Source of the DNA: an uncultured Gammaproteobacteria bacterium | Lineage (GTDB): Bacteria; Patescibacteriota; Patescibacteriia; UBA9934; CAZDDW01 | Assembly (NCBI GenBank): GCA_965231015.1 | Contig: OZ246408.1 | Span: forward strand, 857,908-921,907 | DNA: 64,000 nucleotides | Direction: 5' to 3' | Shown: one piece after another, positions 1-61,755 of the stretch | How the letters are laid out: each line of letters starts with the position of its first letter | How positions within the stretch are numbered: the stretch's first letter is position 1 | Notes under the pieces: generated by a model | What the model was told of the DNA's origin: nothing | Database searches by the model: none | What the model saw: only the letters and a program-made list of their open reading frames with translations | Program-made: the position numbers and the translations under genes

Positions 1-644
1 TTATTGAATGGGAGAAAGAACGTTTTTAGCCCCTTCAACTCCGTTGTCATGTATATCAAATCCGTGTCTACAGCAAAATGAGCCAAGCATCGTTTGAACC
101 GTAGCAAGGGCTCTTTTGGATCTCGGTCAACTCGATATTGTTGCACGGCATTTTTAACGGTCTGACCGGTTAATTGATTTTTGAGTTCAACTGTAAAAAT
201 TGGCAGACCATTCAAAAACAAAACAATGTCAATAGAATTCTCATTCTGATCACTATAATGAACCTGACGCATAACACTAAAGATGTTTGCGTCATACAGT
301 CGCTGGCTTTCCGGATTCATACCGGAGTTTGGCTTGAAGTAGGCCAAGTCAATTTTTTGTCCATGATCGGAAAATCCGTTCCGCAACACATCCAAGGTTC
401 CACGTTCTCGAATCTCTTTATCTAAACGATTGAAAACTTTATCATTGATCTGGTCCCCGTGGATTTCCAGGAGGCGTCCATATTTTTCTGATTGTGTATT
501 TTCAATGAATTCTAAAACCAGTTCCGGATCCATACAGACATTCTTCATGTATGCACTCGCCGGCCGAGTTTGATACCCATTTTCCTCCGTGAGGAACTCC
601 TCAATAAATTCCTCAAACCCAATTTCTTTGATATTAGTAGTCAT
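1..644 (-). CDS. hsdR: Type I restriction enzyme R subunit (HsdR), N-terminal ~214 aa only; ORF runs open off the window start
   Basis: ATG at 644 (rc), reading frame open to position 1 with no stop; PD-(D/E)xK-like segment IDIVLFLNGLPIFTVELKN and HsdR-typical TFFLPFN motif; start overlaps stop of upstream ORF (ATGA-type coupling). Confidence 0.65.
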   Translation of the reverse strand, partial: MTTNIKEIGFEEFIEEFLTEENGYQTRPASAYMKNVCMDPELVLEFIENTQSEKYGRLLEIHGDQINDKVFNRLDKEIRERGTLDVLRNGFSDHGQKIDLAYFKPNSGMNPESQRLYDANIFSVMRQVHYSDQNENSIDIVLFLNGLPIFTVELKNQLTGQTVKNAVQQYRVDRDPKEPLLRFKRCLAHFAVDTDLIYMTTELKGLKTFFLPFN

Positions 645-646
645 AA

Positions 647-1363
647 TTATTTCTCATCCATCCAAGTAAAGTCTTGGTTTTGACATCTGATAGCTTTTTC
701 TGGACAATGAGCAGTTAATACTTCTAAGGATTGTTCTTCAAGTTTTTGTAGTTCACGATATTGTTTGTATTTACCTTCACCAATTCTAGTGTCTCCCACT
801 AACTCCTTTGGCATAATCGACAAATCGATCCATTTTGTCATAAGACTCAGAGCGATTAAGTCATAACGCAGTTGAGCTAATCGCTTCTTTAAAAATCGCT
901 CTTGTACTTCTTGGTTGTTGTGTTGCAAACCAAATTTATCATATTTTTCAATTTGTTCAATATCTAGCACAATTGTACTGATTTGGCTTTGCTCTTCAAT
1001 GGTATAAAATAAATCTAAATATTGACCACTTGCTAGAATGCGCTTTAAGTTTGGTGCGTTGTAAATTTTGCTTAGATATTTTGGAAAAGGTTTGAAGCCC
1101 TTTGTCGCTTCTTTGAGATCTGACATTACTTGTCCTAGATTAACAATATCTTCAAGGCTTGCAAAATATAGAGTTCTGATTTCAACTTTGATCACTTCTT
1201 TTAATCTGTGCCATTGTATCCGTTTTCGATTCCAGCTAATCCAATAAGTAACAACTGAGATAAATGCTGTGGCTGCAGCAATCCCAAAAGAAGCAATAGT
1301 CGCCCATTGTGTTACTAATTGAATTGTATCAACGGTTTCTTGGGCCATATTATTCCACAACAA
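647..1363 (-). CDS. hypothetical membrane-anchored protein (238 aa) embedded between hsdS and hsdR
   Basis: ORF with one predicted N-terminal TM helix (WATIASFGIAAATAFISVVTYWISW) then ~190-aa soluble domain; start overlaps hsdS 3' end by 14 nt, stop abuts hsdR start; no recognisable family. Confidence 0.55.
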   Translation of the reverse strand: MLWNNMAQETVDTIQLVTQWATIASFGIAAATAFISVVTYWISWNRKRIQWHRLKEVIKVEIRTLYFASLEDIVNLGQVMSDLKEATKGFKPFPKYLSKIYNAPNLKRILASGQYLDLFYTIEEQSQISTIVLDIEQIEKYDKFGLQHNNQEVQERFLKKRLAQLRYDLIALSLMTKWIDLSIMPKELVGDTRIGEGKYKQYRELQKLEEQSLEVLTAHCPEKAIRCQNQDFTWMDEK

Positions 1364-2708
1364 TCTTCCCAGTCACCGCGTGCGAAATCAGCGACGAGCG
1401 GTATTCTTGAATTAACCTGATCGACTTTTGGATTTTTTTGATAGCTCTATCAATCTCCAATGTTTTCTTATCTAAAAAATATGCAATGTTTTTTTGAATA
1501 GACGTACTGGGTACAGGTATTGATTCCGTAAAATATGATTTGACATCTAGATTCTGAATACCAGTTGTCTGCTTTATGAACTTTTTATTGACTCCTTTAA
1601 CGTACATAGCTCTATTGAGATATGTAAAGTACTTTGAGTCGACAGAATCATTTAATCGTATAGTTTCAATGAAATTTGAATTTACTGCGGTGTTGTTCAA
1701 ATCAAACTGGACAATTCTGCCAACTGGTGTCTTTTCTCCACCTCCAGACTTCTCAAGTAATAGATCACCAAGCTGCAGTTTTTTTGAGCTAAGATGATTC
1801 CTCGCTACATCTCGGAAAGTGTAACCCTCAGGCTTTAATCTAAGATTTGTATAAACAAAGTCAGCAACTCGGACACATAATGTTCCAGTTTCTTCAGTCG
1901 CTTCACCATCACCCCATGTTCCACCAAAGTGAGTGCTAATGAAATCCTTTTGCCTTTGGACATCCCACCCCTCTGGCATCTCGCCAATCCATTCAACACC
2001 CGAATCTTTCATCTTCACATTCGGATCCAGGCCTTTTGTAACAGCTTGCGTAATCAAAGCCGCGCGTTTTTCTTTCAGAAGCTCGATCTGCTTCTTTTTC
2101 TTTTTCTCCACCTCATCAATCACGGCCGTTTTTTCATCAAGAAAATCTGCAATGCGTTTTTGTTGATCTGCTGATGGAAGCAGAACGCCGAGTCGTTCAA
2201 AATCATGTCGTTTTACTTGAAGTGAATTTGGTCGAACCCCATAAAGTAGGCTGGTATATTTTTGAACATACTCATATGAACGTAATAAATAGTGAGCGAA
2301 ACGACTCTCGATCTTATTACTTAAATAGTAACTCTGATAGGCCGGGCTAACGTATCCGTCAAGGGCTGAAACTCCTAGTCCTTTAAAGTTCAACCACATA
2401 GTATTAACGACAAGTTGACCCTTATGAACAATGCGATAGTTACTATTATCTTCTGAGACTAATTGACCGTCATTTGTTGTCACATTCCTGGGCTCAACTC
2501 CTCGATACCCTGATACAGATAACGCAAGCTCAAAATCAGGGTGATCTTTAACGCGTTCATCACTTGCCCACATGACAAATTTTAATGGTTTAAAAATCCA
2601 GTCATTTGGAATATGCACAATCCATTCAACACCTGAATTTTTCATCTCCTTTTTGTCTCGTAATGTGTATTTCATATTTATTGCCACAAATTTACAAACC
2701 AATTCCAA
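1350..2708 (-). CDS. hsdS: Type I restriction-modification specificity subunit HsdS (two target-recognition domains)
   Basis: Duplicated TRD lead-in motifs GVEWIVHIPNDW / GVEWIGEMPEGW, conserved central and C-terminal coiled-coil repeats (LDEKTAVIDEVEKKKKKQIELLKEKRAALITQAVTGKL / YFLDKKTLEIDRAIKKIQKSIRLIQEYRSSLISHAVTGKI); alternative internal starts at 2675/2645 possible. Confidence 0.85.
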   Translation of the reverse strand: MELVCKFVAINMKYTLRDKKEMKNSGVEWIVHIPNDWIFKPLKFVMWASDERVKDHPDFELALSVSGYRGVEPRNVTTNDGQLVSEDNSNYRIVHKGQLVVNTMWLNFKGLGVSALDGYVSPAYQSYYLSNKIESRFAHYLLRSYEYVQKYTSLLYGVRPNSLQVKRHDFERLGVLLPSADQQKRIADFLDEKTAVIDEVEKKKKKQIELLKEKRAALITQAVTKGLDPNVKMKDSGVEWIGEMPEGWDVQRQKDFISTHFGGTWGDGEATEETGTLCVRVADFVYTNLRLKPEGYTFRDVARNHLSSKKLQLGDLLLEKSGGGEKTPVGRIVQFDLNNTAVNSNFIETIRLNDSVDSKYFTYLNRAMYVKGVNKKFIKQTTGIQNLDVKSYFTESIPVPSTSIQKNIAYFLDKKTLEIDRAIKKIQKSIRLIQEYRSSLISHAVTGKIVVE

Positions 2709-3070
2709 TCAAGACCGAAAAACGCCAGTAAACCAATGAGCAGGGCCAGGATAGCTAGAGCTGCTTGGAAATCATTTTTAACCCAACGCCAAAGACGATA
2801 TTTAATTTTGAGCTCACTTCTACCTGCATTTGTTATTCCAACGTAAATCCCTGGAATTCCGCCACCGCTTCTACCGTTCTGTTTAATTATGAAATTTTGT
2901 GACTCCAATGTATCACAGGCATGAGCGACACGGGATTTGAAATAGTCAACATGTTTTCTTACATCTTCTTTATACCCTCTATCAAGCAAGGCTTTTTTTA
3001 GATTAGAAACAGTAATCTTCATATCATCTCGTACTAACACCTTTAGAATGTCCTTGTGTAATTTTTCCAT
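2678..3070 (-). CDS. small protein (130 aa): N-terminal winged-helix-like region, C-terminal TM helix; embedded between hsdM and hsdS
   Basis: ORF begins 2 nt after hsdM stop and overlaps hsdS start by ~31 nt; C-terminal hydrophobic stretch AALAILALLIGLLAFFGL; no family recognised. Confidence 0.45.
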   Translation of the reverse strand: MEKLHKDILKVLVRDDMKITVSNLKKALLDRGYKEDVRKHVDYFKSRVAHACDTLESQNFIIKQNGRSGGGIPGIYVGITNAGRSELKIKYRLWRWVKNDFQAALAILALLIGLLAFFGLDWNWFVNLWQ

Positions 3071-3072
3071 AC

Positions 3073-5112
3073 CTACATCTGATCAATCAATGACTTAAGT
3101 TCTGATTCGACCTGCTCGATATCTTTCTGAATTTCATCCAGTGATCGTGGGGCTTCATACTTGTAGAAGAATCGTGTTACCGGGATTTCGTAGCCAACTT
3201 TTCCGACTTTATTATCCTTGTGATCCTTTTTACTTTCATCAATCCATGCATCAGCAACATAAGGTTTTACTTCTTCTTCAAAATAGTCGTTAACATCTTG
3301 ATTCAGTGGAACATTTTCCGTATCGCGTAAACTCGAATCAGCTTGCTGCTTGTCTTGGCTATCCAAAAAGACATCCGCTGTTTCATCATGCTCGGAAAGA
3401 GCATTAACGATTGCCTTTTTAAGCGGAGCGGGTAATTTGAGATCGTTATTTTTCCATATACCCTCAAGCAATTTTATGTATTCATTTCCATTCTTAAATA
3501 ACTCAGTGGACATCTCGCTAAGTGCTGAAATGATGCTGTCTTGAAGCTTAATTCCGGCTTCAATTTCTTCATTGCCTTTATCGCCTTTTTTCTTCGAAGT
3601 AGCCAGCTTTTGAAAAACCTGCTCCTCTTTTAGCGCTTCAACACGTTCTGGAGTTACCTGAAAATTGAGCCTTAGTGGGCGTTCGATTGTAATCTGACGG
3701 TATCCAAAACCTTCGTTGTTGAAGATTTTTGAGTATTCATTCTCTTCAAACTTTGAATATAGCTCAACAATCTTTTTTCTGTCTTCTTCGGTGATTTCAT
3801 TGCGTTTGTTGCCAAGACTTTTGCGCATCTTTTCAGACATGCCTCGAGCGTCAATGATTTGCACCTTGCCTTTGCGCTCGTCAGGCTTTCGGTTTGTTAT
3901 AAACCAGAGATAGGTTGGAATACCTGTATTGAAGAAAAGTTGATCTGGCAAGGCAATGATAGTCTCTAGCCAATCGTTCTCTAGAATCCAGCGTCGGATT
4001 TCACTTTCTCCGCTACCCGCATCTCCAGTGAAGAGTGGTGACCCGTTGAAGACAATGCCCAGACGCGATCCGCCTTCGTGCTCGGGTCGCATTTTTGAAA
4101 TGAGGTGTTGTAGGAATAACAACTGACCATCAGAAACCCGCGGTGTACCAGCTCCAAAACGACCGGCGTATCCACGTTCTTCTTCACGCTCGATTACTTG
4201 CTTGTCTTTTTTCCAATCTATACCAAACGGAGGGTTGGTGAGCATGTAGTCAAAGTCTTTACTGAAAAACTGATCATTAGAGAGGGTGGAGGCGATGGAA
4301 TGATCCTTTTCTCCGCCTTTGATATTATTCGGATCTTCACCCTTAATCAGCATATCCGCCTTACACATGGCATAGGTAACCGGGTTCAATTCTTGACCGT
4401 AAAGATAAATGTCAGCGTTACTTTTGATATCTTTCTTAATATGATCTTTGGCAACCGAGAGCATTCCACCAGTACCACAGGCACAGTCGTAAATGGTTTT
4501 AATCAGATGTTCTTTTTGAAGTTTTTTTTGGTCAGGGGCGAAGAGGACTTCAACCATGACTTTAATAACATCTCGTGGAGTGTAATGTTCTCCCGCGGTT
4601 TCGTTAGATTGTTCGGCAAACTTTCGAATAAGCTCTTCGAAGATTGAACCCATCTCATGATTGTCCACTCGGTCCGGGTGAAGATCAACCTTGTTGATGA
4701 TTTTGATAATTTCGTAAAGCAGATTACCACCTTCTAGGCGATCTAGCTGGCGGTCAAAGTCAAACTTCTCAATGATGTCAGTGATGTTTTCGCTAAACTT
4801 GCTCAGATAATCACGAAAGTTTTGTGCAATACCCGATGGATCCTCAAGTAAATTATTAAAATCATATTCTGAGATATTATAAAATCCAACTCCACTGGTT
4901 GCTTTCAGGATTGGGTCAAGATCATTAATTTCTCCACTGAGCTCGTTGTATTGCTCAAGTACAGCCTTCTTGGTTGGTGCAAGCAACAAATCCAAACGTC
5001 GAATCACGACCAAAGGGAGAATTACATCTTGGTACTCGTGCTGCTTCCAGCCACCTCGAAGAATGTCAGCGATATTCCAAATTAATTGTGCTTTTTCTTT
5101 GAAGTTGTTCAT
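3073..5112 (-). CDS. hsdM: Type I R-M N6-adenine DNA methyltransferase subunit HsdM (679 aa, with C-terminal extension)
   Basis: SAM-binding motif I DCACGTGGML and catalytic motif IV NPPFG; HsdM-N-like N-terminus; followed by hsdS and hsdR. Confidence 0.9.
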   Translation of the reverse strand: MNNFKEKAQLIWNIADILRGGWKQHEYQDVILPLVVIRRLDLLLAPTKKAVLEQYNELSGEINDLDPILKATSGVGFYNISEYDFNNLLEDPSGIAQNFRDYLSKFSENITDIIEKFDFDRQLDRLEGGNLLYEIIKIINKVDLHPDRVDNHEMGSIFEELIRKFAEQSNETAGEHYTPRDVIKVMVEVLFAPDQKKLQKEHLIKTIYDCACGTGGMLSVAKDHIKKDIKSNADIYLYGQELNPVTYAMCKADMLIKGEDPNNIKGGEKDHSIASTLSNDQFFSKDFDYMLTNPPFGIDWKKDKQVIEREEERGYAGRFGAGTPRVSDGQLLFLQHLISKMRPEHEGGSRLGIVFNGSPLFTGDAGSGESEIRRWILENDWLETIIALPDQLFFNTGIPTYLWFITNRKPDERKGKVQIIDARGMSEKMRKSLGNKRNEITEEDRKKIVELYSKFEENEYSKIFNNEGFGYRQITIERPLRLNFQVTPERVEALKEEQVFQKLATSKKKGDKGNEEIEAGIKLQDSIISALSEMSTELFKNGNEYIKLLEGIWKNNDLKLPAPLKKAIVNALSEHDETADVFLDSQDKQQADSSLRDTENVPLNQDVNDYFEEEVKPYVADAWIDESKKDHKDNKVGKVGYEIPVTRFFYKYEAPRSLDEIQKDIEQVESELKSLIDQM

Positions 5113-5963
5113 ATAAGTGGTTTGAATAGTTGTGTGTACTCATGGAGATGAAAAACTCTATGTCTATCTTTTCCGGTCACCTCTTTGAGAACGTTAAGTT
5201 TTACAAGCTCCTTAAACAATTCATTGATCGTCTGGTAAGTACTTTTCTCTTGATAGCTATTCTGAAGTTCCTTGATGGTAAACTGCGGCTTTTCCATCAT
5301 ACATGGTAACAGACCCTGAAAAAGATCTTTGCGTTGTTTGGCAAAGCCATTCGTCCGCTCCTTATATTTTCCATCTAGTGTCCTGATGTTGTGAAGTAGA
5401 CTGATGATTAATTCTGTCTGTTCCGCAACTTGTTGATTTGGGTCATGGGTGTTGTTCTGCATCCGTGAAAATATAAGAATGGGGGCCAAGAGAACACTTC
5501 GTTCGACAAGATACATGTTGGCAATCAAATCTGCCACTAGTTCATTGCCTTTATGAAATGGCGATATTTGTAAAAAATTCTGATATAACTGGATAGCGCT
5601 TTCGAAAATATTATCTTTCGAGTTGTGCTTGACTAACAACCTTTGCAGTGCCTTCTGTTTATCTTGGGAACGCCATTCACCCGGCTGGTAATTATATGTC
5701 TCTTTTTGCGAAAAGATCTGACGATGCAGTGAAGCGATGGCGTCTAAAAAATCTTCTCTGACCTTCGTCGGTTTAATAAAGGCAGTGATAAACCGCGATT
5801 CAGTCACTGGTAGCTGACCATGATTCTCATCAATTATTTGCTGTGTAAAAGCTAATTTAGCCAAAGAATAGCGCATTAATAGCGCAAATTGCGATGATTC
5901 TATCCATCCATTGATCTTCCCGATGTTGAGAAGTGCTAATTTTTCTGGCGCAATATGTTGCAT
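5109..5963 (-). CDS. Fic/Doc-family-like protein with degenerate active-site motif and C-terminal wHTH-like domain; first gene of the R-M operon
   Basis: Segment ISPFHKGNELVADLIANMYL aligns to the Fic HPFx[DE]GNGRxxR motif but with H->S, D->K, G->E, R->L substitutions; stop overlaps hsdM start (5109-5112). Confidence 0.45.
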   Translation of the reverse strand: MQHIAPEKLALLNIGKINGWIESSQFALLMRYSLAKLAFTQQIIDENHGQLPVTESRFITAFIKPTKVREDFLDAIASLHRQIFSQKETYNYQPGEWRSQDKQKALQRLLVKHNSKDNIFESAIQLYQNFLQISPFHKGNELVADLIANMYLVERSVLLAPILIFSRMQNNTHDPNQQVAEQTELIISLLHNIRTLDGKYKERTNGFAKQRKDLFQGLLPCMMEKPQFTIKELQNSYQEKSTYQTINELFKELVKLNVLKEVTGKDRHRVFHLHEYTQLFKPLI

Positions 5964-5977
5964 ATCTTATTCAGAGT

Positions 5978-6006
5978 TTGACAAAGATTACTGATTGTGA
6001 TAATAC
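5978..6006 (+). promoter_or_regulatory. sigma70-like promoter for the divergent DUF2130-like gene (TTGACA-N17-TAATAC), sharing its -10 hexamer region with the minus-strand promoter
   Basis: TTGACA at 5978-5983, 17-nt spacer, TAATAC at 6001-6006; overlaps the minus-strand -10 at 6000-6005. Confidence 0.45.
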
Positions 6007-6029
6007 CAAAAGGCTAATTAATTGTCAAG
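6000..6029 (-). promoter_or_regulatory. sigma70-like promoter for the Fic-hsdM-hsdS-hsdR operon (TTGACA-N17-TATTAT on minus strand)
   Basis: rc of 6024-6029 = TTGACA, 17-nt spacer, rc of 6000-6005 = TATTAT; ~28 nt upstream of Fic-like ATG at 5963. Confidence 0.5.
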
Positions 6030-6045
6030 TAAATACTCAAATAAT

Positions 6046-7263
6046 ATGACCGAACAAACTATAATTTGCCCTGAGTGTAGCGCAGAAATCCCCTTAAATA
6101 AAGCGCTTACAGGAAAAATTCATGCTGAGCTTCGCAAGGAAATGAACGCAGAGCTTCAGGACAAGAGGACTGAGCTTGCCCAAAAAGAAACACAATTTGC
6201 TAAACAGCAGGAGGATTTGCAAAAAACAATTGATGCCCGTGTAGCAAAGGAGCGAGCGGAAATTGCCAAGCAAGCGAAAGATGAGGCTACAAAAGTGCTT
6301 GATCTTCAACTCAAGGATCTCCAAAAAGCCAATGAAGAAAAGGGACAGGAGTTGAAAGCTATGAAGGAGGCCGAGTTAGAGCTTCGTAGGCAAAAACGTG
6401 AAATTGAAGCGCGAGAAAAAAACCTCCAGCTCGAGTTTGAACGCAAAATGGATACTGAACGAGAAAAAATTGCTGAAGATGTGAGAAAAGCTGCTGCAGA
6501 AGAGAGTCGGCTTAAGGTTGCAGAAAAGGACAAACAGATTGCCCAAATGAACAAAACGATTGTGGATCTAAAACGAAAAGGTGAACAAGGCTCCATGCAA
6601 ATCCAAGGTGACGTGCAAGAAGATGGCCTGAAGATTCAGCTGCAGAATATTTTCCCTATTGATACCATCGAGGATGTCCCGACTGGAATTAAAGGAGCTG
6701 ACTTGGTGCATCGCATACGAACCGACCTTGGTCAAGAAGCTGGTACGATTCTCTGGGAATCAAAAAATACTAGGGCATGGAATGGTGGCTGGGTGAAAAA
6801 ACTCAAGGATGACCAGGCGTCTGTTAAGGCTGATGCATGTATCTTAGTTTCTCAAGCATTACCTGATGGGATCGATGATTTTGGATATGTCGACGGAGTA
6901 TGGGTGTGCAAATATCGCTCAGCTGCGTCTTTGGCGTCTGTGCTACGCCACAGCGTTGTTGAAATCTCACAAGTTAAGCAGTCGTTAGTGGGTAAGGATC
7001 AAAAAATGGAGCTTCTTTATAACTATTTATCCGGAAGCGAATTCCGAAACCGTGTAGAAAACATCGTTTCTGCATTCACAGGCATGCAGTCGGATCTTGA
7101 AACCGAAAAGCGTTCCATACAGCGCACATGGAAGAAGCGTGAAAAAGAAATTGAACGTGTAATCACTAATACGTCTGGGATGTATGGAGACCTTCAAGGT
7201 CTCATTGGTGCTTCGCTTAAAACAATCCGGTCTCTCGAACTATCAAGTGGGGATGAAGATTAA
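6046..7263 (+). CDS. coiled-coil protein with N-terminal CxxC and C-terminal PD-(D/E)xK-like domain (DUF2130-like)
   Basis: ORF track start is TTG at 6022; first ATG at 6046 (MTEQTIICPECSAEIPL); ~180-aa K/E/Q-rich coiled coil; C-terminal GADLVHRI...ILWESKNT resembles D...ExK nuclease motif. Confidence 0.5.
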   Translation: MTEQTIICPECSAEIPLNKALTGKIHAELRKEMNAELQDKRTELAQKETQFAKQQEDLQKTIDARVAKERAEIAKQAKDEATKVLDLQLKDLQKANEEKGQELKAMKEAELELRRQKREIEAREKNLQLEFERKMDTEREKIAEDVRKAAAEESRLKVAEKDKQIAQMNKTIVDLKRKGEQGSMQIQGDVQEDGLKIQLQNIFPIDTIEDVPTGIKGADLVHRIRTDLGQEAGTILWESKNTRAWNGGWVKKLKDDQASVKADACILVSQALPDGIDDFGYVDGVWVCKYRSAASLASVLRHSVVEISQVKQSLVGKDQKMELLYNYLSGSEFRNRVENIVSAFTGMQSDLETEKRSIQRTWKKREKEIERVITNTSGMYGDLQGLIGASLKTIRSLELSSGDED

Positions 7264-7358
7264 GGAAACCCGAGATGGTTTAGGTGAGAAAATTTTCCTA
7301 TTCGATAGAATAATAATATAACTGTTAGTATTGGGTGAATGTGCCATAATGCCCGCGT

Positions 7359-7862
7359 ATGATGGAGCAAGCTGAACAACTGGTGCGCGAGCGGATTACG
7401 GGCACGCGCAAAGGCATGGACAAGCCGGCCTGCACGCATTCGTTCAATGTGCGGGATATTCTGGCGAGGCACGGGTTTTCCGGTGAGGTGCAACTGGCCG
7501 GGCTGTTGCACGATGTGATCGAGGACGGGGGCGTGAGTTTGGACGAGCTAACAGCGCTCGGGTTTGGCGATCGGGTGGTAGAGCTCGTTAATCTGGCTTC
7601 GCACGACCTCGCGGTCGAAGGCTCGTACGAGCGCTGGGTCAAAATGATCGCGCGGCTGATTGACGCGACTGACGCCGAGGCTTGGGCCATCAAGCTCGCT
7701 GACATCCGCGACAACCTGCGCGACAGCCATGCTATGCCGAACAAAGAACAACAACTCTTGCTCCGCGAAGTCAAGGTCCGGCTAATGCTGGAGCTAACTA
7801 AAAATTTCAATGACCTGTCCGGTCTGCGCCAAGAACTGGCAAACGAGCTTAAGGCAATCTAG
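7359..7862 (+). CDS. small HD-domain hydrolase of RelA/SpoT type (small alarmone hydrolase-like)
   Basis: HSFNV...LAGLLHDVIEDGGVSLDELTALGFGDRVVELVNLASHD matches the SpoT/RelA HD hydrolase core (H...LLHDvIED...FG..V..LV). Confidence 0.55.
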   Translation: MMEQAEQLVRERITGTRKGMDKPACTHSFNVRDILARHGFSGEVQLAGLLHDVIEDGGVSLDELTALGFGDRVVELVNLASHDLAVEGSYERWVKMIARLIDATDAEAWAIKLADIRDNLRDSHAMPNKEQQLLLREVKVRLMLELTKNFNDLSGLRQELANELKAI

Positions 7863-7896
7863 TTTTTACTATTCGTTCGAATTAGAGCAAAAACAA

Positions 7897-7916
7897 AGAA
7901 GCCCCGAAAGGCTTCT
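7897..7916. terminator. 7-bp hairpin (AGAAGCC-CCGAAA-GGCTTCT) between convergent genes
   Basis: Perfect inverted repeat; no clear U-tract. Confidence 0.3.
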
Positions 7917-7936
7917 GAAGTGAGGATAAAGAGTGG

Positions 7937-8287
7937 TCAAGGATCAGTAGGACAAAGTGCGAGATTGCGATTCTGGAGCTCACCACTCTGTTCGGCTTTG
8001 AAGGTGGCAGTGTAGGTGCCGTCGGCATTGGGAGTAAGTTCGGTCAGGAAGTGGCGCTTGTAGGCCTCAGGGTGTCCGACCGCCAGCTCCTTGGTGAAGC
8101 GGGTGTTGTTCATGAACATGCGCACGTTTTCGATGCACTTCACATGTTCGGTGTCGATCACGCACTCGGCCCATTCGAGCCGGTTCTGGCTTTGGCAGTG
8201 CAGGACCGGAAGTCCGATCATGATGCCGATAATCAGTAGCCCGCCGACCAGGCTGACCCAGATATTTTCTTGCTCGCGCTTTTCCAT
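7937..8287 (-). CDS. small membrane-anchored protein (start taken at MEKREQ..., N-terminal TM helix)
   Basis: ORF in GC-rich island; hydrophobic IWVSLVGGLLIIGIMIGLPVL; longer ORF-track start at 8365 less likely. Confidence 0.4.
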   Translation of the reverse strand: MEKREQENIWVSLVGGLLIIGIMIGLPVLHCQSQNRLEWAECVIDTEHVKCIENVRMFMNNTRFTKELAVGHPEAYKRHFLTELTPNADGTYTATFKAEQSGELQNRNLALCPTDP

Positions 8288-8485
8288 GACTACTCCTTCG
8301 AAAGATCGTGCCTCAAACCTAGCAGAAAAATGAACACTGGTCAAGCCCATAAATTGACAAACCAAGCTTAAATGCTATAGTTATTTTTGAGAGGAGAAAA
8401 CAGCGCTTCGCGGTGCCTTACACATACTGATCGCAGTGGTCATATTACTTCATTTCCTTCAAAATCGACGACTGGTTGGACTAAC

Positions 8486-8773
8486 ATGAACAAGAACGCC
8501 TATTTTAGCAGCCTGATCCGCGAGCACGGCTTTAGCCGAGTGGCACACCAGATCGTGTACGAGCACGAGCGGCCGAGCAGTTCCCGCGCTGACTACTGGC
8601 GCCTTGAATTCACTGCTCAGACTGAGGACGATATGTACGTGCAAGGCCAGTTCACATCCGTGGGCTCGTCTGCCGGACAGCCAGCGCAAATCACCGGTCA
8701 GGTCACGAACCTACAGCCGATTTCAGCACAACAGTACCAACGGCTGGTGGCTGAATACGGCGGATTGGACTAG
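8486..8773 (+). CDS. hypothetical protein (start at MNKNAYF)
   Basis: ORF in GC-rich island, no family recognised. Confidence 0.3.
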   Translation: MNKNAYFSSLIREHGFSRVAHQIVYEHERPSSSRADYWRLEFTAQTEDDMYVQGQFTSVGSSAGQPAQITGQVTNLQPISAQQYQRLVAEYGGLD

Positions 8774-8781
8774 GGGGAAAG

Positions 8782-9231
8782 ATGAACCTGTGGCTCAAAC
8801 TGCAACACCTGTTCAGCCGGCGCTTCCAGGCGCGTTGCGGACACCGGACTTACCGGCGTGATCGCATCCAGGCCTATGGCTACAGCACCATCGTCACGCT
8901 CAGGACCGAGCACGAAACCACTCCCTACTGCCACCGCTGCCTGGAAGCCATGACCGCGCTGTGCCCGATCTGCCATTCGTCAATCTTCATTGGTGAACCG
9001 GTGCGGATCGTGGTGCCGCTGCGCGAAGACTTCGAAGTTCAGGAGGGCATGCGCACCTTTGACATTGATCAAAACCACATCAAAATGGTGGCCTGCCTGC
9101 GTTGCGCGGATACCATTGCGCTGATCAGCGGCATCTGGGTACCGCCAGGGGTGGTCCAGCTGATCGAATCCCCGCTCGAGCATGCTTGGCGCACTGGACA
9201 GCCCACAGTGGCCGAAATCTACTACCACTAA
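8782..9231 (+). CDS. Cys-rich hypothetical protein (CHRC...CPIC zinc-ribbon-like)
   Basis: ORF with CxxC x2 spaced ~12 aa; GC-rich island. Confidence 0.4.
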   Translation: MNLWLKLQHLFSRRFQARCGHRTYRRDRIQAYGYSTIVTLRTEHETTPYCHRCLEAMTALCPICHSSIFIGEPVRIVVPLREDFEVQEGMRTFDIDQNHIKMVACLRCADTIALISGIWVPPGVVQLIESPLEHAWRTGQPTVAEIYYH

Positions 9232-9314
9232 CTCCCGAGCCCTTCCTGAAGGGCTCGTTTCTTTTTGACAAATTAAAAGCGACCCGCATGATAACAGGTC
9301 GCGATTACGTTGTG

Positions 9315-9740
9315 TTAGCGACAAAGGTAGTAGTCTAAATCCCAGTCATCAACCGGGTTACCACAGGTGTCTTGTTCCATGACACACTCCCAGTCGTTAG
9401 TGAGCAACTTGGAACGGTGATGTCGGGGATGATCTTCGAAATAACTGATCTCTTCGTCAGTCAAATTAAGCCGATCGCGCAGTTTATCGCGCTCGAACAG
9501 AATCGGGTCCGTTGATGAACATTCTCGGAACATCGAACTGCACAAGATGCACTTGCACATCTGTTCGTGTTCGTAGTGTAAGTCTGCGAGCAGATGTATC
9601 ACCTTCTGGTCATGCTTGTCTGGATTCGGTCCGCGCTCATACCACAGAAATATTCCCACGAATGGATCGATCAAGATTAGCAAATACACCCCAATGATTA
9701 GACAAGAAATTATTAGATCTTTCCAATCTTGACGACGCAC
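9315..9740 (-). CDS. small membrane-anchored protein, tandem paralog A
   Basis: N-terminal TM helix; shares ERDKLRDRLNLTDEEISYFED / ...DLDYYLCR with adjacent ORF (QRDQLRDRLQFTDVEYEEFVQ / ...SLDYEYFAR). Confidence 0.5.
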   Translation of the reverse strand: MRRQDWKDLIISCLIIGVYLLILIDPFVGIFLWYERGPNPDKHDQKVIHLLADLHYEHEQMCKCILCSSMFRECSSTDPILFERDKLRDRLNLTDEEISYFEDHPRHHRSKLLTNDWECVMEQDTCGNPVDDWDLDYYLCR

Positions 9741-9742
9741 AA

Positions 9743-10186
9743 CTACCTCGCGAAGTACTCGTAGTCCAGGCTACCGTCGGCCTTAGTGAAAGCCGGGGGC
9801 TTATCCGGACAATGCCAGCTGGCAAGCACCAACTGCTCGCGTGTGGAGTCAGCACGTTGCACGAACTCTTCATACTCGACGTCCGTGAACTGGAGCCGGT
9901 CGCGCAGCTGATCGCGTTGGGTCAAGGATTCGGCCGAAGTCGGAAGGTCTTCGAGGTCAGTACCGTAGTATTCGCAAGTACAGGCCAGGTAGAAGTTGTT
10001 GTGTACCTCGGCCAGCTCGTCGAGCACAGCCTGGTTATCCTCAGACAGTGGTGGTTGAGTCAGGCCGTGGATCAGACCAATCACCCCGCAGATCACGAAG
10101 ATGACAAAGATCCCACCGATGACGTACATTTCTTTACGCATACTCTCTCCCGGAAAAAGTTCTGAATTCAGCATAGCAAAAATCAC
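9743..10186 (-). CDS. small membrane-anchored protein, tandem paralog B
   Basis: Same architecture and conserved blocks as 9315..9740; 2-nt spacing between the two genes. Confidence 0.5.
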   Translation of the reverse strand: MIFAMLNSELFPGESMRKEMYVIGGIFVIFVICGVIGLIHGLTQPPLSEDNQAVLDELAEVHNNFYLACTCEYYGTDLEDLPTSAESLTQRDQLRDRLQFTDVEYEEFVQRADSTREQLVLASWHCPDKPPAFTKADGSLDYEYFAR

Positions 10187-10270
10187 GACTTTGTCAAGGT
10201 TATTTCCTTGACATCTATCACTCCCAGTGCTATACTACCGCCCGCGTTCATATCAACACGGGGAGAAAAC

Positions 10271-10438
10271 ATGAACGACCCGACAAACGAGATTCAAGAC
10301 GTACCGGCGGACGAACGTGTGTTCGTCTGCGACTGGGTACCAGGCAGTGCTCTGCGCATCTGCTTCGTGCCGCTCGAGCCTGACTCGCCCGAGCCCACAT
10401 CTTCGAACCCGGATCAGCAGACGGATCCCGAACTCTGA
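10271..10438 (+). CDS. small acidic hypothetical protein (55 aa)
   Basis: ATG at 10271 preceded by GGGGAGAAAAC RBS-like sequence. Confidence 0.3.
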   Translation: MNDPTNEIQDVPADERVFVCDWVPGSALRICFVPLEPDSPEPTSSNPDQQTDPEL

Positions 10439-10645
10439 ACCCCAACGCAAAACCGAGCCCACGACGAGCTCGGCCCGCCCGAGGAGTATGTGAACTAGGC
10501 ACGAACAACACACACTCAATCACCAGCCGGACCCGTCTTCAAGGGCCCGGCGCGTTTTTTTCTTTGTTAGATTAAAAACGAAATCCCCAAGGTGAATTCC
10601 TTGGGGGGGTGAGTTAGTCATCACGTATATAGTGGAAGAAAAGAC

Positions 10646-56128: not shown

Positions 56129-56232
56129 TGGTGAGGCCAGATGGAATCGAACCATCGACCGCTGGGGCTCCTCTGGACCATCTAGAACTTGACGACCCAT
56201 ACCCAGTGCTCTACCAGCTGAGCTATAGCCTC
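56129..56232 (-). tRNA. tRNA gene (104 nt, CCA-encoded) with ~28-nt insertion/intron-like segment in the anticodon-loop region; isotype undetermined
   Basis: acceptor GAGGCUA/UGGCCUC, U8A9, D-arm GCUC-AGCUGGUA-GAGC, anticodon stem CUGGG/CCCAG separated by 35 nt instead of 7, variable CGGUC, T-arm GAUGG-UUCGAUU-CCAUC, discriminator A + CCA. Confidence 0.55.
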
Positions 56233-61324: not shown

Positions 61325-61401
61325 TGGTACAGGCGGAAGGATTCGAACCCTCGGCCTTCTGGTCCGAAGCCAGACGCTCTATCCAGCTGAGCTACGCCTG
61401 C
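61325..61401 (-). tRNA. tRNA-Arg (anticodon UCG), CCA encoded
   Basis: GCAGGCG acceptor, D-arm GCUC-AGCUGGAUA-GAGC, anticodon loop CUUCGGA, T-arm GAGGG-UUCGAAU-CCUUC. Confidence 0.85.
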
Positions 61402-61677: not shown

Positions 61678-61755
61678 GCCCTGTTAGCTCAGCCTGGTTA
61701 GAGCAGTTGCCTCTTAAGCAAACGGTCGTAGGTTCAAATCCTACACAGGGCACCA
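61678..61755 (+). tRNA. tRNA-Lys (anticodon CUU), CCA encoded
   Basis: GCCCUGU acceptor, D-arm GCUC-AGCCUGGUUA-GAGC, anticodon loop CUCUUAA, T-arm GUAGG-UUCAAAU-CCUAC, ACAGGGC-A-CCA. Confidence 0.85.

What the first reader, a model, noticed from the sequence alone, without database searches (positions are those of the whole stretch)
1..5963. Type I R-M operon with three embedded non-R-M genes (Fic-like / hsdM / wHTH-TM ORF / hsdS / TM ORF / hsdR), all translationally coupled
The sequence shows six consecutive minus-strand ORFs with overlapping or abutting stop/start codons. They are driven by a consensus TTGACA-N17-TATTAT promoter. Two small membrane proteins are inserted exactly at the hsdM-hsdS and hsdS-hsdR junctions. 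The hsdS-hsdR slot is the position occupied by the latent PrrC anticodon nuclease in the E. coli prr locus (established knowledge). By analogy, these ORFs could be cryptic defence effectors or regulators held in check by the R-M complex. Neither ORF resembles PrrC or any family I recognise.
Basis: partly seen in the sequence, partly recalled or inferred. Interest (0 to 1): 0.8.

Follow-up and report, generated by a model that had tools for sequence, protein, structure and literature searches.

The report
Restriction operon carrying two membrane-anchored passengers
A horizontally acquired Type I restriction-modification operon carries two small, real but unannotated membrane-anchored genes in its two internal junctions, and relatives of both turn up next to restriction-modification genes in other organisms, so they are new candidates of an already known kind (genes embedded in defence operons), with function still untested.

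Summary
Six minus-strand genes (Fic-like, hsdM, ORF3, hsdS, ORF5, hsdR) follow each other with junctions of -4, +2, +2, +1 and +2 nt, behind an 11/12 sigma-70-like promoter. The locus is a low-GC island.

In 55 complete related operons, 44 carry co-oriented genes at the hsdM-hsdS or hsdS-hsdR junction. The cargo is mostly toxin, nuclease or defence domains, so these junctions are cargo slots. Embedding in Type I R-M operons is published ('guilt-by-embedding').

Both small ORFs are real and match no Pfam, NCBIfam, PADLOC or PHROGs model.

- **ORF3 (130 aa)** is a divergent PadR-like winged helix with a C-terminal membrane anchor. Four of six informative family contexts place it directly 5' of an hsdS gene, next to at least two unrelated methyltransferase families.
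- **ORF5 (233 aa)** has an N-terminal hydrophobic anchor (above the hydropathy cut-off in 10 of 13 members) and a predicted cytoplasmic four-helix bundle with no specific fold relative. Four of five informative contexts border Type I, II or IIG R-M genes, elsewhere apparently as a stand-alone gene.

The two families never co-occur outside this window. The PrrC analogy is right about position only: no nuclease or ATPase, and no sign of dependence on a Type I complex. The Fic-like gene is a conserved leader gene with a dead active-site motif.

The parts
6000..6028 (-). Sigma-70-like promoter of the operon: TTGACA (6028..6023), 17-nt spacer ending in TG, TATTAT (6005..6000)
   Evidence: 11/12 match, the best in 1..8000. 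Sequence read. An inverted repeat TTGACAA/TTGTCAA (6022-6028 / 5978-5984) brackets it. Function not tested.
5109..5963 (-). Leader gene: shortened Fic-fold protein (284 aa) with a degenerate active-site motif and a SoFic-like C-terminal region
   Evidence: Pfam Fic 26.9 bits; PADLOC SoFic 1.4e-14 over residues 178-280. The motif reads SPFHKGNELVAD, against HPFLDGNGRIGR in ~380-aa relatives placed next to hsdM (mostly upstream) in 29 ORFs among the 80 related loci. 49% identical to the equally degenerate L003 copy.
3073..5112 (-). hsdM, Type I methyltransferase subunit (679 aa)
   Evidence: Pfam HsdM_N plus N6_Mtase (E 2e-66); PADLOC MTase_I PDLC03029 4e-277. An NPPF motif is visible in the translation. 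The ATGA start overlaps the Fic-like stop.
2678..3070 (-). ORF3 (130 aa): PadR-like winged-helix domain plus C-terminal tail-anchor transmembrane helix (about residues 97-126)
   Evidence: No Pfam, NCBIfam, PADLOC or PHROGs hit. Six homologues by exhaustive phmmer plus one in L019. AF2 pLDDT 78, wHTH plus a long C-terminal helix. Foldseek top hits are PadR family, E 8e-5. Family profile against PDB sequences gives PadR at E 1e-4. Hydropathy and flanking K/R counts. The ATG 3070 start is supported by invariant K6/I8/L9.
1350..2675 (-). hsdS, Type I specificity subunit (441 aa, two target-recognition domains)
   Evidence: Pfam Methylase_S in two stretches; PADLOC Specificity_I 4.6e-94. Its start lies 2 nt after the ORF3 stop.
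647..1348 (-). ORF5 (233 aa): N-terminal hydrophobic anchor (about residues 15-37) plus predicted cytoplasmic four-helix bundle
1..644 (-). 5' part of hsdR (first 214 codons; the gene continues beyond the window)
   Evidence: Pfam HSDR_N 1.1e-18. Full 983-aa product with ResIII, SWI2_SNF2 and T1R_D3-like domains in the identical contig L001. 84% identical to L003 HsdR.
6046..7263 (+). Divergent DUF2130 gene, probably part of the same acquired island
   Evidence: Pfam DUF2130 8.4e-68. Low-GC block extends to about 7300. A DUF2130-like gene sits in the same divergent position in L003 and inside the M-S slot in L013.

Best explanation
**Cargo-slot model.** The region is an intact, horizontally acquired Type I R-M operon. 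In its lineage the hsdM-hsdS and hsdS-hsdR junctions act as insertion slots for exchangeable accessory genes, which are then expressed from the operon promoter.

The two small ORFs are independent cargo modules from two previously unannotated protein families. Both recur next to R-M genes elsewhere.

- **ORF3** is a tail-anchored, PadR-like winged-helix protein whose family characteristically sits immediately 5' of an hsdS gene. The most likely role (inferred) is a membrane-tethered DNA-binding regulator of the hsdS(-hsdR) part of the system. It would be analogous in role, not in fold, to C-proteins or RptR.
- **ORF5** is a membrane-anchored cytoplasmic four-helix-bundle protein that elsewhere appears to be a stand-alone gene beside Type II, IIG or CBASS loci. 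The most likely role (inferred) is an autonomous single-gene defence or exclusion candidate acting at the inner face of the membrane. Here it was captured in the S-R slot and so is co-expressed with hsdR.

**Shown:** gene order and junctions; reality and conservation of both families; folds; membrane-anchor propensity; cargo-slot behaviour; R-M-biased neighbourhoods.

**Inferred:** co-transcription, DNA binding, regulation and any anti-phage activity.
For: - **Slots.** Of 55 complete M..S..R relatives, 44 carry co-oriented ORFs in a slot: 20 in M-S, 38 in S-R, 14 in both.
- **Cargo.** It is heterogeneous and defence- or toxin-like: PIN, NYN, Fic, trypsin-like protease, DUF3800, YhcG, AAA_15/21, reverse transcriptases, PemK, AbiEii, GmrSD, TIR, HEPN.
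- **Cassette exchange.** The closest operon, L003 (HsdM 79%, HsdR 84%), has no M-S gene and a DUF6119 gene in place of ORF5. Nucleotide homology stops within a few bases of the gene junctions.
- **Island.** GC is 36-46% against 50-59% beyond about 7.5 kb.
- **ORF3 family contexts.** M-[x]-S in the window and in L019. In L092 the order is MTase-[x]-half-HsdS with 4-nt overlaps, and the methyltransferase belongs to a different family. In L095 the order is RhuM-[x]-HsdS.
- **Possible own promoter.** In L095 the homologue has a promoter-like site of its own and 10-bp tandem repeats upstream.
- **ORF3 fold.** PadR relationship by fold and by profile.
- **ORF5 family contexts.** L083 is followed by an EcoRI-type MTase. 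L085 is followed by a TM protein, a Type II MTase and a IIG-type REase. L096 lies beside a C5-MTase, an HTH_3 gene plus a 367-aa gene, and CBASS.
- **Independence.** No ORF3 relative is present in any ORF5 locus, and none the other way round.
- **Published precedent** for embedding in Type I R-M: bioRxiv 10.1101/2024.01.29.577857, PMC12255303, PMC12707154.
Against: - No experiment and no expression data.
- The context samples are small: 6 informative contexts for ORF3 and 5 for ORF5. L019 was found through an HsdM-based search, so it is biased toward R-M.
- Two ORF3 relatives (L088, L093) and one ORF5 relative (L089/L090) are not next to R-M genes.
- No operator-like repeat was found near ORF3 or the promoter in the window itself.
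- A membrane anchor is unusual for a simple repressor.
- ORF5 has no recognisable functional site, so its assigned role rests on neighbourhood alone.
- Three of 13 ORF5-family members have only weakly hydrophobic N-termini.
Confidence: 0.5

Rival explanations
1. PrrC-like guard model. One or both small proteins are latent toxic effectors, for example membrane-disrupting ones. The assembled HsdMSR complex keeps them inactive, and they are released when a phage anti-restriction protein inhibits the enzyme, causing abortive infection.
For: ORF5 occupies the hsdS-hsdR position that prrC holds in the prr locus (PMC12707154, plus the textbook gene order recalled from memory). Sister operons carry mostly toxin-type cargo in these slots. 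Membrane anchors are common in abortive-infection effectors (general knowledge). Tight coupling would give stoichiometric co-expression.
Against: No ATPase, nuclease or HEPN motif: the four libraries give nothing, and the ORF5 alignment has no Rx4-6H. ORF5 relatives appear to be stand-alone genes next to Type II and IIG systems or housekeeping genes, so they cannot depend on a Type I complex. ORF3 has a DNA-binding fold and a single tail anchor. No toxicity data exist.
Confidence: 0.2
2. Membrane-localisation model. ORF3, through DNA or HsdS/HsdM contact, and/or ORF5, through HsdR contact, tether the R-M complex or incoming DNA to the inner membrane. Restriction would then act at the site of phage DNA entry, making them structural accessory subunits and not regulators or effectors.
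For: Both proteins are predicted to have one membrane anchor with the folded domain in the cytoplasm. ORF3-family genes are translationally coupled to M and S genes in three systems: the window, L019 and L092. Membrane association of EcoKI has been reported (recalled from memory, not retrieved here).
Against: Only 1 of the 80 closely related operons has an ORF3 relative and none has an ORF5 relative, so the enzyme does not need them. ORF5 relatives neighbour unrelated R-M types. No interaction evidence; complex prediction could not be run.
Confidence: 0.13
3. Neutral passengers. The two genes are unrelated membrane proteins that landed in recombination-prone junctions of a mobile R-M island and have no role in defence or in the R-M system.
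For: Some relatives lie in non-defence neighbourhoods: L088 beside HtrA and ABC transporter genes, L093 in a polysaccharide and radical-SAM cluster, L089 beside cell-wall and housekeeping genes. Both families are rare, with 6 and 12 cluster representatives among 1.84 billion.
Against: R-M adjacency recurs in 4/6 and 4/5 informative contexts and across different R-M types, far above what the rarity of hsdS and MTase genes would give (inference). ORF3 relatives occupy the same position, directly 5' of hsdS, in four different systems. Published work finds that most genes embedded in Type I R-M are defence-related or unknown, not housekeeping (bioRxiv 10.1101/2024.01.29.577857).
Confidence: 0.12
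4. The two small ORFs are annotation artefacts in overlong intergenic spacers.
For: The word-indexed homology search found only self-hits, and no HMM library recognises them.
Against: The exhaustive search found conserved full-length homologues with invariant residues. AF2 models are confident. The ORFs fill the gaps exactly, with 1-2 nt junctions.
Confidence: 0.01

Closest known systems
Genes embedded in Type I R-M operons ('guilt-by-embedding' candidates; DarTG2 between hsdS and hsdR in EPEC; RhuM, PDC-S05)
   Same: Co-oriented genes sit exactly between the R-M subunit genes, in slots that hold different cargo in related operons. The hsdS-hsdR site is described as a hotspot (PMC12255303; bioRxiv 10.1101/2024.01.29.577857). 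An ORF3 relative shares the M-S slot with RhuM in L095.
   Different: Neither ORF matches any PADLOC-DB v2.0.0 model, including the PDC sets, at E <= 0.01. Neither has a recognisable toxin, nuclease or ATPase domain. Both are small single-anchor membrane proteins.
PrrC / RloC anticodon nucleases of the E. coli prr (EcoPrrI) locus
   Same: ORF5 is positioned between hsdS and hsdR and is co-expressed with the R-M genes. The idea of an accessory linked to R-M status comes from this system (PMC12707154).
   Different: PrrC is a soluble ABC-ATPase-like protein with a C-terminal anticodon nuclease (established knowledge). ORF5 is a 233-aa membrane-anchored helical bundle with no such domains. Its relatives are not confined to Type I loci, whereas PrrC is almost exclusively embedded there (bioRxiv 10.1101/2024.01.29.577857).
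PadR family, single-C-terminal-helix type (LmrR, BC4206, Rv3488, Listeria 6abt/6abq)
   Same: The ORF3 model superposes on these structures (Foldseek E 8e-5 to 1e-3, TM-score 0.6-0.76 on the target). The family profile hits PadR PDB sequences at E about 1e-4. The architecture is the same: wHTH followed by one long C-terminal helix.
   Different: In ORF3 the C-terminal helix continues into an approximately 20-residue hydrophobic membrane-spanning segment preceded by a conserved W-Y-K-K-F-W belt. The Pfam PadR model does not reach E 0.1 on the single sequence. The genomic partner is hsdS, not an efflux or stress gene.
R-M transcriptional controllers (Type II C-proteins; RptR of Type I islands)
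   Same: A small DNA-binding protein is encoded inside or at the head of an R-M operon. In L095 the ORF3 relative has a promoter-like site and short tandem repeats containing a 6-bp palindrome upstream, reminiscent of the RptR operator layout (PMC12255303).
   Different: The fold differs: PadR-type wHTH, against the Xre-type HTH of C-proteins or the 79-aa all-helical RptR. ORF3 is membrane-anchored and located between M and S, not at the operon start. No operator was identified in the window.
SoFic / Fic-domain genes associated with R-M and defence islands
   Same: The first gene has the Fic fold and a SoFic-like C-terminal region. A Fic gene next to hsdM, mostly just upstream, is typical of this operon lineage.
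   Different: The catalytic motif HxFx(D/E)GNGRxxR is destroyed (SPFHKGNELVAD) and the N-terminal ~100 residues are missing. L003 shows the same. AMPylation activity is therefore unlikely.

Membership tests
Type I restriction-modification system | HsdM with an N6-adenine methyltransferase domain (HsdM_N plus N6_Mtase, NPPF motif) | tested here: met
   (E 2e-66; PADLOC MTase_I 4e-277). NPPF is visible in the translation.
Type I restriction-modification system | HsdS with two target-recognition domains | tested here: met
   Methylase_S in two stretches; PADLOC Specificity_I 4.6e-94 over residues 7-437.
Type I restriction-modification system | HsdR with an N-terminal nuclease region and an SF2 helicase motor | tested here: met
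   HSDR_N in the window part. The full 983-aa product in the identical contig L001 carries ResIII, SWI2_SNF2 and T1R_D3-like domains.
PrrC / RloC anticodon nuclease | N-terminal ABC-ATPase-like NTPase domain and C-terminal anticodon-nuclease domain (about 400 aa, soluble) | tested here: not met
   ORF5 and ORF3 have no hit in Pfam, NCBIfam or PADLOC. The ORF5 model is an anchor helix plus a four-helix bundle. Only the position is shared.
PadR family (for ORF3) | Winged helix-turn-helix followed by a C-terminal dimerisation helix | tested here: met
   AF2 secondary structure. Foldseek top 30 hits are almost all PadR family.
PadR family (for ORF3) | Significant sequence match to the family model | tested here: inconclusive
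   The Pfam scan of the single sequence gives nothing at E <= 0.1. The 8-member family profile hits PadR PDB chains at E 1.2e-4 to 5e-4.
PadR family (for ORF3) | Sequence-specific DNA binding and repression | not testable with these tools
   Needs EMSA, ChIP or a reporter assay.
Fic / SoFic AMPylases (for the first gene) | Active-site motif HxFx(D/E)GNGRxxR | tested here: not met
   SPFHKGNELVAD in the window and KPFNNGNEIIAA in L003, against HPFLDGNGRIGR in 27 relatives.
Fic / SoFic AMPylases (for the first gene) | Fic fold / family HMM match | tested here: met
   Pfam Fic 26.9 bits (cut-off 24); PADLOC SoFic 1.4e-14. NCBIfam SoFic scores 34.9 bits, far below its 550-bit cut-off.
HEPN RNases (considered for ORF5 because of the four-helix bundle) | Conserved Rx4-6H motif | tested here: not met
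   The family alignment shows a conserved R-x-x-x-x-R-x-x-L and no conserved His.
Type II R-M controller (C) proteins | Xre-type HTH of about 80 aa, upstream of the R gene, with C-box operators | tested here: not met
   ORF3 is PadR-type, 130 aa and membrane-anchored. No repeated operator was found near it in the window.
Embedded phage-defence candidate (guilt-by-embedding criteria) | Co-oriented gene nested between genes of a Type I R-M system, with no mobility or housekeeping function | tested here: met
   Positions and strands. No transposase, integrase or housekeeping domain. Criteria as given in bioRxiv 10.1101/2024.01.29.577857.
Embedded phage-defence candidate (guilt-by-embedding criteria) | Demonstrated anti-phage activity | not testable with these tools
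   Needs plaque assays.

The most novel reading that the evidence does not exclude
The ORF3 family is a previously unrecognised, membrane-tethered PadR-type component dedicated to M/S modules of R-M systems. It would act as a regulator or fourth subunit that couples methylation and restriction to the membrane or to envelope signals at the site of DNA entry. ORF5 would define a new single-gene, membrane-anchored anti-phage family with a novel helical-bundle domain.
Probability: 0.15. Interest if true: 0.75.

Novelty: new variant of a known kind. Interest (0 to 1): 0.5.

Why it matters
Genes nested inside R-M operons have been a productive source of new anti-phage systems, and more than half of such embedded genes remain unexplained (bioRxiv 10.1101/2024.01.29.577857).

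This locus adds two compact candidate families that are absent from Pfam, NCBIfam, PADLOC and PHROGs. One has an unusually specific position, a tail-anchored PadR-like protein directly upstream of hsdS next to unrelated methyltransferases. If that reflects function, it would be a new way of regulating or localising Type I-like enzymes. The other is a small membrane-anchored protein that recurs beside R-M systems of three types.

Both are short and easy to test. The families are also concentrated in low-GC, largely uncultivated (Patescibacteria-like) genomes, whose defence repertoires are poorly charted.

Tried and rejected
**Searches that gave nothing or little**
- Word-indexed protein searches with each ORF returned only self.
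- A degenerate DNA pattern for ORF5 in JGI metagenomes gave one 1.3-kb contig with uninformative context.
- Patterns for both families in IMG/VR gave 0 hits. tblastn against PLSDB plasmids and INPHARED phages gave none, so there is no sign that either family is phage- or plasmid-borne.
- PHROGs gave nothing meaningful.
- hhalign of the ORF5 family against two other membrane proteins found in slots of sister operons (L006, L057) showed no relationship.
- Operator-like repeats around ORF3 and the promoter in the window were not convincing.
- Rfam found no RNA element in the region.

**Ideas rejected**
- That ORF3 and ORF5 form a two-gene system: they never co-occur elsewhere.
- That ORF5 is HEPN-like: there is no Rx4-6H.
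- That the ORFs are spurious.

**Not determined**
- The host organism was not identified.

Full report
**1. The observation**

The minus strand of 1..5963 carries six consecutive genes:

| Gene | Coordinates | Product |
|---|---|---|
| Fic-like | 5963..5109 | 284 aa |
| hsdM | 5112..3073 | 679 aa |
| ORF3 | 3070..2678 | 130 aa |
| hsdS | 2675..1350 | 441 aa from the ATG (the mechanical ORF starts at TTG 2708) |
| ORF5 | 1348..647 | 233 aa |
| hsdR | 644..1 | cut by the window edge |

The junctions read from the sequence are an ATGA overlap, then gaps of 2, 2, 1 and 2 nt. The promoter-like site TTGACA-17-TATTAT with a TG extension at 6028..6000 is the best match (11/12) in the first 8 kb. No convincing internal terminator is present: 13 terminator-like sites were found against 6.7 +/- 3.2 expected, all weak.

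Two metagenomic contigs (L001, L002) are 100% identical to the window over 11.3 and 7.4 kb. They show that hsdR is complete (983 aa; HSDR_N, ResIII, SWI2_SNF2, T1R_D3-like). Domain scans confirm HsdM, HsdS, HsdR and a marginal Fic match. Co-transcription and translational coupling remain inferences from spacing.

**2. The locus is an acquired island of a recognisable operon lineage**

GC is 36-46% from position 1 to about 7300 and 50-59% beyond about 7.5 kb.

A scan of species-representative genomes with HsdM returned 80 related loci. The closest is a Gammaproteobacteria MAG (L003: HsdM 79%, HsdR 84%, Fic-like 49% identity). The next closest, at 62-68%, are mostly Patescibacteria.

In this lineage a Fic gene lies next to hsdM, mostly just upstream; 29 Fic-like ORFs were found among the 80 loci. 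Those copies are about 380 aa with an intact HPFLDGNGRIGR motif. The window and L003 copies are shortened (284 and 293 aa), with the motif degraded to SPFHKGNELVAD and KPFNNGNEIIAA. The first gene is therefore a conserved leader gene that has lost the catalytic signature. It is not an embedded gene.

A DUF2130 gene lies divergently upstream here (6046..7263). One sits in the same position in L003 and another inside the M-S slot of L013.

**3. The two junctions are cargo slots**

I called ORFs in the 80 loci and labelled HsdM, HsdS and HsdR by phmmer. Among the 55 loci with a complete co-oriented M..S..R:

- 44 have at least one additional co-oriented ORF of at least 50 aa in a junction;
- 20 have one in M-S, 38 in S-R, and 14 in both.

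The 96 slot proteins share no common family. They are dominated by toxin and defence domains: PIN, NYN, Fic, trypsin-like protease, DUF3800, YhcG PDDEXK, Hypoth_Ymh, AAA_15/21, reverse transcriptases (DRT-like), PemK/MazF, AbiEii, GmrSD, TIR and HEPN.

In L003 the M-S junction is empty (a 4-nt overlap) and the S-R slot holds a 585-aa DUF6119 protein. Nucleotide homology with the window runs to within a few bases of the hsdS stop and resumes 3 nt before the hsdR start. ORF5 and the DUF6119 gene are therefore alternative cassettes at the same site.

This behaviour is published. Type I R-M systems frequently contain embedded genes, 96.7% of them co-oriented. PrrC is almost exclusively found embedded. 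More than half of embedded genes have no assigned function (bioRxiv 10.1101/2024.01.29.577857). DarTG2 lies between hsdS and hsdR in EPEC, and that site is called a potential recombination hotspot (PMC12255303). prrC is embedded in the EcoPrrI locus (PMC12707154).

**4. ORF3**

*Homologues.* No library recognises ORF3, and a word-indexed search found only itself. An exhaustive phmmer search of 1.84 billion cluster representatives found six homologues of 121-139 aa at 26-33% identity. A seventh lies in L019.

*Start codon.* The alignment has invariant K6, I8, L9 and G83 and a conserved W-Y-K-K-F-W-x-F-F belt before a hydrophobic C-terminus. Residues 6-9 lie upstream of the GTG start used in the 120-aa public gene call. 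The ATG at 3070 is therefore the true start.

*Structure.* AlphaFold2 with the family alignment gives pLDDT 78: three helices, a beta-hairpin wing and one long C-terminal helix spanning residues 81-129. Foldseek against PDB returns almost only PadR-family regulators (6abt, 3hhh, LmrR, Rv3488; E 8e-5 to 1e-3). Independently, the family profile hits PadR chains by sequence at E about 1e-4.

*Membrane anchor.* All eight members have a C-terminal 19-residue window with Kyte-Doolittle H of 2.1-2.8. The N-terminal flank has 2-5 K/R residues, and the tail beyond the hydrophobic core is 1-4 residues in six of the eight members (10 in the window protein, 15 in P0023). This indicates a tail-anchored protein with the winged helix in the cytoplasm.

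*Genomic contexts.*

| Locus | Arrangement |
|---|---|
| Window | hsdM-[ORF3]-hsdS |
| L019 (Saccharibacteria) | hsdM-[x]-hsdS, gaps of 4 and 1 nt; the S-R slot there holds a trypsin-like protease |
| L092 (P0021) | LexA-like, then a 615-aa HSDR_N_2/N6_Mtase/Eco57I methyltransferase of a different PADLOC family, then [x], then a 226-aa half-HsdS; 4-nt overlaps on both sides |
| L095 (P0025) | RhuM-[x]-hsdS, 6-nt gap |
| L088 | After htrA, before small unknown genes and an ABC transporter (not R-M) |
| L093/L094 | Polysaccharide and radical-SAM cluster (not R-M) |
| L084, L087 | Contigs too short to judge |

Four of six informative contexts place the gene immediately 5' of a specificity gene. 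Only L019 came from an R-M-biased search.

In L095 the gene is preceded by 202 nt of intergenic DNA. This contains 3.9 tandem copies of GTTATAAGAA (each with the palindrome TTATAA) and a TTGAAA-18-TATAAT site. The layout recalls the RptR operator (PMC12255303). No comparable element was found in the window.

**5. ORF5**

*Homologues.* No library recognises ORF5. The exhaustive search found 12 homologues of 208-255 aa at 26-37% identity. Invariant residues are W36, E56, R58, R161, L167 and P180, within the motifs T-Y-W, E-L-R-T-x-Y and D-L-S-I-M-P-K-E, and a frequent C-terminal P-x-Q-Y-F-G.

*Membrane anchor.* Ten of 13 members pass a hydropathy threshold of 1.6. In nearly all of them the C-terminal flank of the hydrophobic core is K/R-rich (up to 7) and the N-terminal flank is not. 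This indicates an N-out anchor with the bundle in the cytoplasm. The anchor is weak in three members.

*Genomic contexts.*

| Locus | Arrangement |
|---|---|
| Window | hsdS-[ORF5]-hsdR |
| L083 (P0008) | Divergent from dnaG; followed after an 83-nt gap by an EcoRI-family adenine methyltransferase, cut by the contig end |
| L085 (P0009) | First gene of a co-oriented cluster: [x], a 287-aa TM protein, a Type II MTase (PADLOC 2e-115), then a T5orf172/ResIII IIG-type enzyme (2e-88) |
| L096 (P0015) | Divergent from an HTH_3 gene plus a 367-aa gene (putative C-protein and REase); next to a C5-MTase, a LexA-like gene and a CBASS pair (CD-NTase plus Cap15) |
| L089/L090 (P0020) | Followed by DUF817, a peptidase, a Mur ligase, CorA and CysRS; only 670 nt visible upstream (not R-M) |
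| L086, L091 | Contigs too short to judge |

Four of five informative contexts border R-M genes of three different types. Outside this window the gene follows an intergenic gap of 84-325 nt or is divergently oriented. That is why I treat it as probably stand-alone elsewhere; no promoter was mapped.

**6. Relationship between the two**

No ORF5 relative occurs in any of the 80 sister operons, and only L019 has an ORF3 relative. No locus fetched for one family contains the other. They are independent modules. Neither family was found in IMG/VR, INPHARED phages or PLSDB plasmids. Most homologue-bearing contigs are low-GC (26-37%), consistent with Patescibacteria-like hosts.

**7. Mechanism: what is shown and what is inferred**

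*Shown:* an intact Type I R-M operon; junctions that behave as exchangeable cargo slots; two real, conserved, unannotated families; a PadR-like fold with a tail anchor for ORF3; an anchored helical bundle for ORF5; R-M-biased neighbourhoods.

*Inferred for ORF3:* it is a dimeric, membrane-tethered DNA-binding protein functionally tied to M/S modules. Regulation of hsdS(-hsdR) expression is the most economical reading. This rests on PadR-family behaviour, on the L095 homologue's possible own promoter and repeats, and on the fixed position ahead of hsdS. I put that specific role at about 0.35. A membrane-tethering role is the main alternative.

*Inferred for ORF5:* it is an autonomous single-gene accessory of defence islands acting at the inner membrane face, captured here in the S-R slot. 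Its activity (sensing, exclusion or abortive effector) cannot be deduced from sequence.

*The PrrC-type guard model:* it remains possible (about 0.2), but it is not favoured. ORF5 relatives do not depend on Type I partners, and neither protein has an effector domain.

**8. Comparison with known systems and novelty**

What this works like: an R-M operon with embedded accessory genes, which is a known kind. Whether the ORFs belong to a known embedded family: no. They match no PADLOC model, including the PDC sets, and they fail the defining features of PrrC/RloC, C-proteins and HEPN. ORF3 is a divergent member of the PadR fold class with an unusual membrane anchor.

A full-text search combining PadR, hsdS, hsdM and transmembrane found no description of such a protein. 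That library is incomplete.

I rate this a new variant of a known kind. The finding is solid as a description and moderately interesting (0.5). The phenomenon is established, but these two families, and in particular the recurrent [PadR-like tail-anchored gene]-hsdS arrangement, appear undescribed and are directly testable.

Noticed in passing
window 5109-5963 (-); L003 9123-10004: The Fic-like leader gene has lost the catalytic motif (SPFHKGNELVAD against HPFLDGNGRIGR) and about 100 N-terminal residues. It is still conserved (49% identity) with the equally degenerate copy in the closest operon, which suggests a retained non-catalytic role, for example through its SoFic-like C-terminal region.
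   Followed up: partly
window 6046-7263 (+); L003 7821-9029 (-); L013 11943-13199: A DUF2130 gene (Zn-ribbon N-terminus, coiled coil) lies divergently upstream of the operon here and in L003, and inside the hsdM-hsdS slot in L013. This family of unknown function looks R-M-associated.
   Followed up: partly
L095 747-785 and 838-867: There are 3.9 tandem copies of GTTATAAGAA (each containing the palindrome TTATAA), plus one more copy about 50 nt upstream. They lie ahead of a TTGAAA-18-TATAAT promoter-like site and the start of the ORF3 homologue. The layout is operator-like and reminiscent of the RptR direct repeats.
   Followed up: partly
L092 4516-5118; L096 2148-2813: LexA-like genes (LexA_DNA_bind plus Peptidase_S24) sit immediately upstream of DNA methyltransferase genes in two unrelated loci that also carry an ORF3 or ORF5 relative. 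They may be SOS-type regulators of R-M modules.
   Followed up: no
window 3040-3070: A public gene call for ORF3 (120 aa, GTG start at 3040) removes the invariant residues K6, I8 and L9. The ATG at 3070, 2 nt after the hsdM stop, is the better-supported start.
   Followed up: yes
window 5978-5984 and 6022-6028: A perfect 7-nt inverted repeat TTGACAA/TTGTCAA brackets the operon promoter, with one arm forming the -35 box. A TAATTA palindrome lies in the spacer. This may be an operator or may be chance.
   Followed up: no
window 1-7300 versus 7500-10500; loci L004-L033: The island is low-GC (36-46%) inside a 50-59% GC flank. After one Gammaproteobacteria MAG, its closest relatives are mostly Patescibacteria/CPR operons (62-68% HsdM identity), which suggests transfer across very distant lineages. 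The host organism of the window was not identified.
   Followed up: partly
L085 1304-4652: A co-oriented four-gene cluster: the ORF5 homologue, a 287-aa multi-TM protein, a Type II MTase, and a T5orf172/ResIII Type IIG-like enzyme. This could be a distinct composite system in which the ORF5 family is the leading gene.
   Followed up: no
L019 6318-7010; L088 3-1037: Trypsin/HtrA-type serine proteases occur near ORF3-family genes twice: in the S-R slot of L019 and directly upstream in L088. A regulated-proteolysis link to the tail-anchored wHTH is conceivable but untested.
   Followed up: no
window 56132-56232 (-), 61328-61401 (-), 61678-61752 (+); 7359-7862 (+): Three tRNA genes lie far from the finding. 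An HD_4-domain gene lies just outside the island boundary.
   Followed up: no
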